In this document: positions 33,001-36,000 of the stretch, one piece after another
Position numbering within the stretch: the first letter of the stretch is position 1
How the letters are laid out: each line of letters opens with the position of its first letter
Assembly: GCF_003790525.1 (NCBI RefSeq)
Contig: NZ_CP033635.1
Length of the DNA: 64,000 nt
Strand: one strand, 5' to 3'
Origin: Escherichia coli
GTDB taxonomy: Bacteria > Pseudomonadota > Gammaproteobacteria > Enterobacterales > Enterobacteriaceae
Position numbers: made by a program

Positions 33001-36000
33001 CTCCTGAGTGGTTTTTTGATTACAAACACCAACAATCTTAGTCAATAATTAATCTAATACCATCAAATAGTTAATCATGATTTTTGTTTTGTGATTCTGA
33101 TTAAGAAAAAGAAAATACCAGACGATAAGACAAAATATCAAGCGTTGTGAAGAAATGTTATTTGCTCTTTTGCGTCTATAGTCATGATGTCAAATGAACG
33201 CGTTTCGACAGGAAATCATCATGAATAAATATCAGGCAGTTATTATTGGTTTTGGCAAGGCTGGAAAAACATTAGCCGTCACGCTGGCAAAAGCAGGTTG
33301 GCGTGTGGCTCTCATCGAACAATCAAATGCAATGTATGGCGGGACCTGTATTAATATCGGCTGTATCCCAACCAAAACATTGGTTCATGACGCACAGCAG
33401 CACACAGATTTTGTCCGTGCCATACAGCGTAAAAATGAAGTGGTTAATTTTTTACGTAATAAGAATTTTCATAATCTTGCGGATATGCCCAATATCGACG
33501 TGATCGACGGCCAGGCGGAGTTTATCAATAATCATAGCCTGCGTGTTCATCGGCCTGAGGGAAATCAGGAGATTCATGGCGAGAAAATTTTTATTAATAC
33601 CGGTGCACAAACCGTGGTTCCGCCAATTCCTGGAATTACCACCACGCCTGGTGTATATGACAGCACCGGATTACTTAATCTAAAAGAATTGCCTGCACAT
33701 TTAGGTATTTTGGGCGGCGGATATATTGGCGTTGAGTTCGCCTCTATATTCGCTAATTTTGGCAGCAAAGTAACCATTTTAGAGGCAGCTTCGCTGTTTT
33801 TGCCTCGGGAAGATCGGGATATTGCTGATAATATCGCGACGATTTTACGCGATCAGGGCGTCGATATAATCCTCAATGCCCATGTGGAGCGAATCAGTCA
33901 CCATGAAAATCAAGTGCAAGTGCATAGCGAGCACGCCCAACTGGCGGTGGATGCACTGTTAATAGCTTCCGGTCGTCAACCGGCTACCGCTTCGTTACAT
34001 CCAGAAAATGCAGGTATCGCAGTAAACGAGCGAGGGGCAATTGTCGTTGACAAGCAATTACATACCACCGCAAACAATATTTGGGCGATGGGAGATGTTA
34101 CCGGCGGGCTGCAATTTACTTACATTTCACTGGATGATTACCGCATTGTGCGTGATGAATTGCTGGGAGAAGGCAGACGTAGTACTGATGATCGGAAAAA
34201 TGTGCCTTATTCCGTATTCATGACACCGCCACTGTCCAGGGTTGGTATGACAGAAGAACAGGCCAGAGAGAGTGGTGCTGATATTCAGGTGGTGACATTG
34301 CCTGTAGCTGCAATTCCGCGTGCCAGAGTGATGAATGATACTCGTGGGGTATTAAAAGCGATTGTTGATAATAAAACCCAACGTATATTAGGGGCATCAC
34401 TGCTGTGTGTTGACTCCCACGAGATGATCAATATAGTGAAAATGGTGATGGATGCCGGGCTGCCTTATAGCATATTACGCGATCAGATATTTACTCATCC
34501 GTCGATGAGCGAATCACTCAATGATCTATTTTCATTAGTCAAATAAACTCAAAATCAGACGCCAGAACAAATATTCTGGCGTCTCAGAGAAAAGAATCTT
34601 ATTAATTCCCTGTTACTTTATAACTTCTTAATCACTTCATTGATGGTATTTTATATGTTTAAAAAATCTGTTTTATTTGCAACACTATTATCTGGCGTTA
34701 TGGCATTTTCCACCAATGCAGATGATAAAATAATTCTGAAACATATCAGCGTCTCGTCAGTATCAGCATCACCGACAGTTCTTGAGGATGCCATTGCTGA
34801 TATGGCCAGAAAATATAATGCTTCATCCTGGAAAGTCACATCGATGCGAATTGATAATAATTCAACCGCAACAGCAGTATTGTATAAATAAGGATGTTTA
34901 CAATGGAGAAATACCTGCACCTGTTAAGTCGGGGAGATAAAATTGGCCTGACATTGATTCGTCTGAGTATTGCGATTGTTTTTATGTGGATTGGGTTATT
35001 AAAGTTTGTCCCTTATGAGGCAGACAGCATTACACCATTCGTCGCAAACAGTCCACTAATGTCGTTCTTTTATGAACACCCAGAAGACTATAAACAGTAT
35101 CTGACTCACGAAGGCGAATACAAACCAGAAGCAAGAGCATGGCAAACGGCTAATAATACCTATGGTTTTTCCAACGGTCTTGGCGTCGTGGAGGTGATTA
35201 TTGCTCTGCTGGTTTTGGCTAATCCTGTCAATCGCTGGTTAGGTTTATTGGGTGGGCTGATGGCATTTACCACGCCGCTGGTAACACTCTCATTTTTAAT
35301 CACCACTCCGGAAGCATGGGTACCCGCATTGGGTGATGCTCATCATGGTTTCCCTTATTTATCCGGTGCTGGTCGTCTGGTATTGAAAGATACTCTGATG
35401 CTGGCAGGAGCTGTCATGATAATGGCAGATTCGGCGCGGGACATTCTTAAACAACGCAGTAATGAATCCAGTTCAACGTTAAAAACTGAATATTGATAAT
35501 CCGAACACTGTCTGTTGTTCACTTTTTCAGGCGTCAGGCTTTCCTTGCTAATGGGTGAAGCCTGACGCCATATTACCTGAAACAGGACAATGTAAGGTTC
35601 AATATAACTCCCTTATTAAAACATTTATGTCATCTCAGGTAAAATAAGTGATTAATATCAACCATGTGTTTTTACAGCAAGACAACCACGAACAAACTCA
35701 GGATTAAAATGTTTTACCGATTCGCCAACATAACCCAAATCTAGCGAACTAATTTGCGCCATTTCTTTCTCTGTCAGTGAGAAATCCCAGATAGCAAAAT
35801 TTTCTTCGATACGCTGTTGATGTGTCGATTTCGGAATAACGACCACTCCCCGTTGAATATTCCAACGCAGAATGACTTGAGAAATCGATTTTTGATGGGC
35901 ATCTGCAATACTCTGAAGCAGATTATTTTCAAAGGGTTTATGTCGTCCACCACCTAACGGAGCCCATGCTTCAGGCTGCACGTTATAATACTTCATGGTT

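What the first reader, a model, noticed from the sequence alone, without database searches (positions are those of the whole stretch)
35530..35569. 12-bp perfect inverted repeat with 16-nt loop between convergent rclC and the AKR gene
GGCGTCAGGCTT ... AAGCCTGACGCC lies in the 160-bp gap between two convergent genes but has no flanking U-tract on either strand. It is not a classic terminator and could be a REP-like element or a protein-binding site.
Basis: seen in the sequence. Interest (0 to 1): 0.2.

Follow-up and report, generated by a model that had tools for sequence, protein, structure and literature searches.

The report
U-less transcript-end hairpin after rclC
A strong, single-copy hairpin without a U-tail lies between the converging rclC and aldo/keto reductase genes of E. 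coli, and is most likely an ordinary RNA 3'-end stem-loop that caps and stabilises the transcripts, not a mobile repeat or a protein-binding site.

Summary
GGCGTCAGGCTT (35530-35541) and AAGCCTGACGCC (35558-35569) form a perfect 12-bp inverted repeat with a 16-nt loop. It lies in the 161-bp gap between rclC (+) and an aldo/keto reductase (AKR) gene (-), with no U-tract on either strand. The window is E. coli SMS-3-5.

- **Distribution:** the element is single-copy and present in 5037 of 5426 complete E. coli genomes. It is unannotated in MG1655.
- **Conservation:** the 10-bp core stem is almost invariant. The loop varies and carries a 2-nt indel. The 12-bp length is specific to this lineage.
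- **What it is not:** it does not match REP consensus or any Rfam family.
- **Relatives:** in Citrobacter and Salmonella a canonical intrinsic terminator follows rclC at a similar distance.

The best reading is an RNA stem-loop that marks and protects transcript 3' ends. Termination itself would be Rho-dependent, weakly intrinsic or collision-assisted. This is a known class (Dar & Sorek 2018). No 3'-end mapping data for this locus were found, so the mechanism is inferred.

A second U-less hairpin sits just after rclA. It may explain the reported roughly 10-fold excess of rclA over rclBC mRNA. Interest is low.

The parts
35530..35541 (+). 5' arm of the inverted repeat, GGCGTCAGGCTT. The first 10 nt are the core conserved across E. 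coli.
35542..35557 (+). 16-nt loop, TCCTTGCTAATGGGTG. It is hypervariable between E. coli lineages and carries a 2-nt indel.
35558..35569 (+). 3' arm, AAGCCTGACGCC. The last 10 nt are invariant in all 9 alleles compared.
35497..35529 (+). 33-nt spacer between the rclC stop codon and the hairpin, read as the rclC 3' UTR. It ends in a T5 run.
35570..35577 (+). Tail ATATTACC directly 3' of the stem on the + strand. It is invariant in 9 alleles and too poor in U to be a canonical U-tract.
34903..35496 (+). rclC coding sequence, the last gene of the rclABC operon. Its transcript would carry the hairpin.
35658..36527 (-). Convergent aldo/keto reductase coding sequence (the ykgQ pseudogene in K-12). 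Its transcript would carry the complementary hairpin 88 nt after its stop codon.

Best explanation
The palindrome most likely works at the RNA level as a transcript-end stem-loop.

The rclABC mRNA (+ strand) would fold a GC-based stem of 10-12 bp 33 nt after the rclC stop codon. Because the repeat is palindromic, the convergent AKR mRNA (- strand) would fold the same kind of stem. There is no U-tract, so the hairpin is unlikely to release RNA polymerase efficiently on its own.

The proposed mechanism has two steps:
1. Transcription ends further downstream in untranslated or antisense RNA. This would happen through Rho, helped by weak intrinsic termination at AUAUU and/or by head-on polymerase collisions.
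2. [quoted passage not shown] This fixes and stabilises the steady-state 3' end.

What is shown: the structure, its stability, its single-copy status, its conservation pattern and its positional equivalence to terminators in other genera.

What is inferred: the involvement of Rho or exonucleases, and which of the two transcripts matters more. I lean to rclABC, at roughly 60:40.
For: **Stability.** The hairpin is strong on both RNA strands, at -28.4 and -25.1 kcal/mol with z = -6.3 and -5.3. K-12-type alleles give -19.7 and -24.0 kcal/mol.

**Position.** It starts 33 nt after the rclC stop codon, in a convergent gap with no other strong conserved structure.

**Conservation pattern expected of a hairpin.** Over 9 alleles, variable columns number:
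- 1 of 20 in the stem core
- 12 of 20 in the loop and inner positions, with a 2-nt indel
- 7 of 33 in the left spacer
- 21 of 80 in the right flank

Stem core against the rest of the spacer gives Fisher p = 0.027 (alignments).

**Positional analogy.** Citrobacter (L130) and a Salmonella-type locus (L132) have canonical stem-plus-T7 terminators 55-62 nt after the rclC stop.

**Same substitution after rclA.** E. coli has a U-less 11-bp hairpin there, where these relatives have canonical terminators.

**Downstream composition.** The C/G ratio over the 200 nt downstream on the + strand is 1.65, the 98th percentile of the window. This fits a mild rut-like bias.

**Known class.** Dar & Sorek 2018 (PMC6061677) showed that Rho-dependent E. 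coli transcripts end just after stable stem-loops that lack U-tracts and upstream A-tracts, with C-over-G downstream and PNPase/RNase II trimming.

**The stem forms physically.** In a cytosine-deaminated public contig of this locus (L140), 76 of 79 TC/CC cytosines outside the stem were converted, against 0 of 3 inside it.
Against: - No experimental 3' end for rclC or ykgQ was found in the Term-seq or TRS supplements searched. The operon is silent without oxidant stress, so nothing yet shows that transcripts end here.
- There is no covariation. Nine pairs never vary and three depart only by unpaired cells. The structural support therefore rests on conservation and thermodynamics within one species.
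- Strand assignment is ambiguous. K-12-type alleles fold better on the - strand (-24.0 against -19.7 kcal/mol). The JNE082640 G-to-A change keeps a G.U pair only in the - strand RNA.
- The C-over-G bias is partly a by-product of reading antisense to a coding sequence.
- The 16-18-nt loop is longer than is typical for terminator-like hairpins.
Confidence: 0.55

Rival explanations
1. It is a weak, non-canonical intrinsic terminator. The GC-rich hairpin plus the short AUAUU tail would directly release some RNA polymerases at the end of rclABC without Rho.
For: - The stem base is GC-rich (GGCG/CGCC) and the fold is strong.
- The tail ATATTACC is invariant in 9 alleles.
- Relatives have true intrinsic terminators at the equivalent place.
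- Dar & Sorek discuss such low-U cases as possible transition states between termination modes.
Against: - Only 3 U occur in the 8 nt after the stem, and the first base is A.
- There is no upstream A-tract.
- The loop is 16 nt, and the consensus scan did not call the site.
- On the - strand the tail UGAAAAAG has 1 U.
Confidence: 0.2
2. It is a positioning element for collision-driven bidirectional termination. The nascent-RNA stem-loop would fix where converging polymerases from rclABC and the AKR gene meet and terminate.
For: - The element is palindromic, so it folds in both transcripts, and it lies between convergent genes.
- Wang et al. [quoted passage not shown]
Against: - It lacks the A-tract/U-tract symmetry of the bidirectional terminators seen elsewhere in this window, such as 59020-59052 and 37687-37719.
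- rclABC is induced only under oxidant stress.
- In K-12 and many other strains the AKR gene is a promoterless 129-nt remnant, yet the hairpin is retained.
Confidence: 0.08
3. It is a DNA palindrome bound by a dimeric protein, such as an operator or a nucleoid-associated or recombination factor.
For: The half-sites are perfect 10-12-bp inverted repeats and are conserved across E. coli.
Against: - The distance between the conserved half-sites differs by 2 bp between alleles, and the spacer sequence is hypervariable.
- The site lies at the 3' ends of both genes, far from their promoters.
- The 28-bp centre-to-centre spacing is atypical for dimeric operators (general knowledge, not tested here).
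- No second copy exists in the genome.
Confidence: 0.05
4. It is a REP-like or other mobile, repeated extragenic palindrome, or a relic of one.
For: - It is an extragenic, GC-rich palindrome.
- Loose 5-mer resemblances (GCGTC, CAGGC) to Z-type REP arms were noted by eye only.
Against: - It occurs at a median of one place per genome, and at most 2, in 5037 genomes.
- REP consensus seeds do not hit it with up to 3 mismatches.
- It has no GTAG/CTAC flank.
- MG1655 annotates no feature there.
- There are no other copies in the window beyond chance.
- Matches to the same stem in other phyla are chance hits or unrelated repeats, and none lies next to rclC.
Confidence: 0.03
5. It is a palindrome with no function, retained only because E. 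coli lineages are closely related.
For: - There is no covariation.
- The adjacent left spacer is also well conserved in most alleles.
- All comparisons showing the hairpin lie within one species.
Against: - Both arms stay intact while the loop between them and both flanks diverge in one allele or another.
- A perfect 12-bp repeat is expected 0.12 times per 64 kb.
- It occupies the place where relatives carry terminators.
Confidence: 0.09

Closest known systems
Protective 3'-terminal stem-loops of Rho-dependent E. coli transcripts (Dar & Sorek 2018, Nucleic Acids Res, PMC6061677)
   Same: - An energetically stable stem-loop lies shortly after the stop codon.
- There is no U-rich tail and no upstream A-tract.
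- C exceeds G mildly downstream on the + strand.
- It is not a REP element, as was true of 76% of the Rho-dependent 3' ends in that study.
   Different: - No 3'-end, bicyclomycin or exonuclease-mutant data exist for this locus.
- The loop (16-18 nt) is long.
- The element is palindromic between convergent genes, so it could serve two transcripts.
Canonical intrinsic (Rho-independent) terminators, including those after rclC and after rclA in Citrobacter (L130) and Salmonella-type (L132) loci
   Same: - It has a GC-rich stem.
- It sits at a comparable distance after the stop codon of the last gene of the operon.
   Different: - The tail has 3 T in 8 bases instead of a T7-8 run.
- The loop is 16 nt rather than about 4-8 nt.
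- The consensus scan does not call it.
Bidirectional terminators of convergent gene pairs and collision-driven termination (Wang et al. 2022, bioRxiv 10.1101/2022.10.23.513370)
   Same: A stem-loop lies between convergent genes and forms in both nascent RNAs.
   Different: - It has no symmetric A-tract/U-tract flanks.
- The convergent partner gene is a dead remnant in many strains, yet the hairpin persists.
REP/BIME extragenic palindromes of E. coli
   Same: It is an extragenic GC-rich palindrome that could stabilise upstream mRNA.
   Different: It is single-copy, lacks the REP consensus, has no GTAG flank and is not annotated as REP in MG1655.

Membership tests
Canonical intrinsic terminator | GC-rich RNA stem-loop with a stable fold | tested here: met
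   The fold is -28.4 kcal/mol on the + strand and -25.1 kcal/mol on the - strand, with z = -6.3 and -5.3.
Canonical intrinsic terminator | U-tract of 7-8 nt directly after the stem (at least 5 T in 8) | tested here: not met
   The + tail ATATTACC has 3 T in 8 and the - tail TGAAAAAG has 1 T in 8. The scan did not call the site.
Canonical intrinsic terminator | Short loop (about 3-8 nt) | tested here: not met
   The loop is 16 nt in SMS-3-5 and 18 nt between the 10-bp cores in K-12. Weak inner pairs can shorten it to 7 nt in SMS-3-5 only.
Rho-dependent transcript 3'-end protective stem-loop | Stable stem-loop after the coding sequence, without a U-rich tail or an upstream A-tract | tested here: met
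   The class is defined in PMC6061677.
Rho-dependent transcript 3'-end protective stem-loop | C-over-G bias (rut-like) downstream of the stem | tested here: inconclusive
   On the + strand the C/G ratio is 1.65 over 200 nt (98th percentile of the window) but 1.21 over 100 nt (74th percentile). On the - strand it is 1.18 over 200 nt. The bias is confounded by the antisense coding sequence.
Rho-dependent transcript 3'-end protective stem-loop | Steady-state RNA 3' end maps to the base of the stem; read-through rises with bicyclomycin or in pnp/rnb mutants | not testable with these tools
   No rclC, ykgB or ykgQ entry and no 3176xx coordinate appears in the held supplements of Adams 2021. The gene-name search of TRS 2023 and TERMITe 2025 also found nothing. 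The Dar & Sorek supplements are not held.
REP/BIME | Many copies per genome | tested here: not met
   The median is 1 place per genome and the maximum 2, in 5037 of 5426 E. coli genomes. The search used blastn with word size 11 and E up to 10.
REP/BIME | Match to REP consensus (Y or Z type) | tested here: not met
   14-nt consensus seeds with up to 3 mismatches do not hit 35530-35569. MG1655 annotates no feature at the site.
Bidirectional terminator of convergent genes | Stem-loop between convergent genes flanked by an A-tract on one side and a U-tract on the other | tested here: not met
   The convergent location and the stem are met. The flanks are T5 upstream and ATATTACC downstream on the + strand, which is not the required arrangement.
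Dimeric transcription-factor operator | Fixed half-site spacing and position at a promoter | tested here: not met
   Spacing differs by 2 bp between alleles. The site lies at the 3' ends of both genes.
Any Rfam RNA family | Covariance-model match at the gathering score | tested here: not met
   The only overlapping hit is weev_FSE at 21.3 bits against a gathering score of 40, with E = 4.6.

The most novel reading that the evidence does not exclude
In the Escherichia coli lineage, both canonical intrinsic terminators of the rcl operon were replaced by U-less perfect hairpins. One is the internal terminator after rclA and the other is the final one after rclC.

Operon polarity and mRNA 3'-end formation would then depend on Rho and exonucleases rather than on intrinsic termination. 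This would set the unexplained roughly 10-fold excess of rclA over rclBC mRNA. It could also make that ratio responsive to translation or oxidant stress.
Probability: 0.2. Interest if true: 0.35.

Novelty: new member of a known kind. Interest (0 to 1): 0.13.

Why it matters
The element adds a precise, testable end-point to the rclABC operon, a host-oxidant (HOCl/HOSCN) defence locus of E. coli. It also gives a clean natural example of a terminator position that is canonical in Citrobacter and Salmonella but U-less in E. coli.

Together with the sister hairpin after rclA, it offers a concrete hypothesis for the unexplained rclA-to-rclBC transcript ratio reported in 2025 (PMC12096828). Beyond that it is a routine genome feature, and nothing suggests a new mechanism.

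Tried and rejected
**Exact-stem scan of 100,044 species genomes.** None of the loci encodes RclC. The one look-alike, in an Enterobacteriaceae MAG (L127), follows a CheV-like gene.

**Rfam.** There were no credible matches.

**Literature and supplements.**
- No rclC, ykgB or ykgQ 3' end appears in Adams 2021, TRS 2023 or TERMITe 2025.
- The Dar & Sorek supplements are not held.
- No paper combines rclC with terminator or ykgB with bicyclomycin.
- The HOSCN RNA-seq data set does not list ykgQ or ykgA, so read-through could not be judged.

**Search for divergent Escherichia orthologues to find compensatory changes.**
- P0020 turned out to be K-12-like.
- P0048 turned out to be a C-to-T deaminated artefact.
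- No covariation could be obtained.

**AKR orthologues in other genera.** They lie in different genomic contexts without this hairpin, so they do not say which gene owns it.

**Second long-range - strand hairpin (35570-35580 / 35635-35645, pair I4).** It is not conserved: the T-to-G change in most alleles is uncompensated.

**Small ORFs in the gap.** The two found, of 21 and 30 aa, run through the hairpin and were not pursued. Nothing suggests they are genes.

Full report
**Source and observation.** The window is Escherichia coli SMS-3-5: a 361-nt query around the finding matches NC_010498.1 at 100% identity. The sequence at 35530-35569 reads GGCGTCAGGCTT-TCCTTGCTAATGGGTG-AAGCCTGACGCC. This is a perfect 12-bp inverted repeat with a 16-nt loop. 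RefSeq places the end of rclC at 35496 on the + strand and the end of an aldo/keto reductase (AKR) gene at 35658 on the - strand. The element therefore lies in a 161-bp convergent gap, 33 nt after the rclC stop codon and 88 nt after the AKR stop codon. The tail after the stem is ATATTACC on the + strand and TGAAAAAG on the - strand, so neither strand has a U-tract. The consensus terminator scan does not call the site.

**Is it more than chance?** Perfect inverted repeats of at least 12 bp with loops of 3-30 nt are expected 0.12 times per 64 kb in Markov-shuffled sequence. The window holds seven. Several of the others carry A/T runs at the outer ends of their arms, the arrangement of a bidirectional terminator. 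As RNA, this hairpin folds at -28.4 kcal/mol on the + strand and -25.1 kcal/mol on the - strand, with z-scores of -6.3 and -5.3. None of 200 shuffles folded as well. As single-stranded DNA it folds at -15.3 kcal/mol.

**Distribution.** A 52-nt query centred on the hairpin finds it in 5037 of 5426 complete E. coli genomes. The median is one place per genome and the maximum is two. No annotated feature lies under the match in any listed record, including MG1655 at 317649-317698. The 12-mer arm has no extra copies in the window beyond chance. REP consensus seeds of both types miss the site even with three mismatches. Rfam gives nothing credible. The REP-like reading therefore fails its defining tests.

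**Scan of other genomes.** It returned chance hits in GC-rich genomes and unrelated repeats in two MAGs. None of the loci lies next to rclC.

**Variation within E. coli.** Nine alleles of the intergenic region were compared.
- The 10-bp core arms vary at 1 of 20 columns. The single change is G-to-A at stem position 2 in strain JNE082640.
- The loop and the two inner stem positions vary at 12 of 20 columns and carry a 2-nt indel.
- The left spacer varies at 7 of 33 columns.
- The right flank varies at 21 of 80 columns.
- The 8-nt tail ATATTACC does not vary.

Stem core against the rest of the spacer gives Fisher p = 0.027. The 12-bp stem is specific to SMS-3-5-like alleles; strain 04-00955 has 11 bp and K-12 and O157 have 10 bp. 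Constant arms around a free loop of variable length is what a hairpin predicts, and it is not what a spacing-sensitive dimeric operator predicts. There is no covariation, because the stem hardly varies within the species.

**Comparison with other genera.** rclRABC loci recovered through RclC homologues show what occupies the same place elsewhere.
- Citrobacter (L130) has GGGCCAGCAGGATGCTGGC followed by T7, about 60 nt after the rclC stop.
- A Salmonella-type locus (L132) has AAGGCCAGTGGATTGCTGGCC followed by T7, about 55 nt after the stop.
- Both are canonical intrinsic terminators.
- The same replacement is seen after rclA. E. coli has a perfect 11-bp U-less hairpin 10 nt after the rclA stop (34557-34584). 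Citrobacter and Salmonella have canonical terminators in that spacer.

AKR orthologues in other genera lie in unrelated contexts and do not carry this hairpin.

**Mechanism.** The features match the class defined by Dar & Sorek (2018, PMC6061677). In E. coli, transcripts that depend on Rho end precisely just after stable stem-loops. These stem-loops lack U-rich tails and upstream A-tracts and have mild C-over-G bias downstream. PNPase and RNase II trim the transcripts back to the stem. Here the C/G ratio over the 200 nt downstream on the + strand is 1.65, the 98th percentile of the window. On the - strand it is 1.18. That bias is confounded by the antisense coding sequence.

I therefore favour an RNA 3'-end stem-loop that defines and stabilises the end of the rclABC mRNA, and probably of the AKR mRNA as well. 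Actual release of polymerase would be by Rho, possibly helped by weak intrinsic termination at AUAUU. It could also be helped by head-on polymerase collisions, for which a nascent stem-loop is reported to fix the position (Wang et al. 2022).

Strand assignment is not settled.
- Favouring rclABC: the hairpin is close to the rclC stop, the tail is conserved and the C/G bias is on the + strand.
- Favouring the - strand RNA: G.U-extended pairing in K-12-type alleles gives -24.0 against -19.7 kcal/mol, and the JNE082640 change is tolerated only there.

**What is missing.** No experimental 3' end for this locus was found. The operon is silent without oxidant stress. The steps involving Rho and exonucleases are therefore inferences from class membership, not observations.

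**Incidental physical evidence.** A public contig of this locus (L140, Logan SRR27475578) has 76 of 79 TC/CC cytosines converted to T outside the stem, and 0 of 3 inside it. It has no G-to-A changes. This looks like single-strand-specific deamination of DNA in which the palindrome had snapped back into a hairpin.

**Verdict.** This is a real, conserved, single-copy, unannotated hairpin of a well-known kind. It is not a REP element and not an operator, and it is not novel in mechanism. Interest is low. The only mildly interesting angle concerns the two E. coli rcl hairpins, which replace canonical terminators of related genera. The one after rclA may explain the roughly 10-fold lower rclB and rclC mRNA that a 2025 study flagged as unexplained (PMC12096828).

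Noticed in passing
window 34557-34584: A second perfect U-less hairpin lies inside the rcl operon: AGACGCCAGAA / TTCTGGCGTCT, 11 bp with a 6-nt loop. 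It starts 10 nt after the rclA stop, is followed by CAGAGAAAAG, and is identical in MG1655. Citrobacter and Salmonella-type loci have canonical intrinsic terminators in the same spacer. It is a candidate explanation for rclB/rclC mRNA being about 10-fold lower than rclA, which PMC12096828 calls unexplained. It shares the 6-mer GGCGTC/GACGCC with the rclC hairpin, which may be chance.
   Followed up: partly
L140 524-1289 and L141 (Logan SRR27475578, SRR27475715): These are K-12-like rclC contigs in which 76 of 79 cytosines in TC/CC context are converted to T outside the stem, with no G-to-A changes. All 3 such cytosines inside the hairpin stem are unconverted, and 2 of the 3 unconverted ones outside it lie directly next to the stem. 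This looks like single-strand deaminase or bisulfite-type treatment with the palindrome folded. The '86% identical RclC' protein P0048 is this artefact.
   Followed up: partly
L136 360-443 (E. coli Z1323CEC0002): The end of an IS903B copy (...CAACAAAGCC) abuts the first base of the hairpin, and rclC is missing. The insertion or deletion boundary sits exactly at the 5' edge of the stem.
   Followed up: no
L138 367-480 (E. coli JNE082640): This is a mosaic allele. The rclC 3' end and left spacer are divergent (7 changes in 33 nt), the loop is SMS-3-5-type and the right flank is O157-type. This suggests recombination breakpoints around the hairpin. Stem position 2 is G-to-A.
   Followed up: no
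window 22255-22286, 28625-28659, 37687-37719, 56507-56546, 59020-59052, 62719-62748: There are six other perfect inverted repeats of at least 12 bp in the window. Several have A-runs and T-runs at the outer ends of their arms, for example ATAAAAATGGCGC...GCGCCATTTTTAT, and look like bidirectional intrinsic terminators. 56507-56546 is weaker (-13.8 kcal/mol) and AT-rich, and is of unknown nature.
   Followed up: no
L060-L071 (Ruminococcus MAG RUG10944) and L103-L114 (Acidobacteriota MAG KAP bin61): Each MAG holds many contigs with a palindromic repeat built on the same GGCGTCAGGC/GCCTGACGCC stem. In the Ruminococcus MAG it appears as CCAGGCGTCAGGC...GCCTGACGCCGTCCC. These are genome-specific multi-copy hairpin repeats unrelated to the E. 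coli site.
   Followed up: no
L143 about 3414-3442 (Salmonella enterica subsp. salamae-type contig): The AKR orthologue there is also followed by a U-less GC-rich hairpin (ACGGTTGCCG...CGGCAACCGT, then ATGACATT) in a gap between convergent genes. Its sequence is unrelated.
   Followed up: no
L002 / L135 (K-12) 2632-4970; window 35658-37632: In K-12 the AKR gene (ykgQ) is reduced to its last 129 nt. The neighbouring AraC-type gene (ykgA) is truncated next to IS3. Both genes are intact in SMS-3-5. The hairpin is retained despite loss of the convergent gene.
   Followed up: partly
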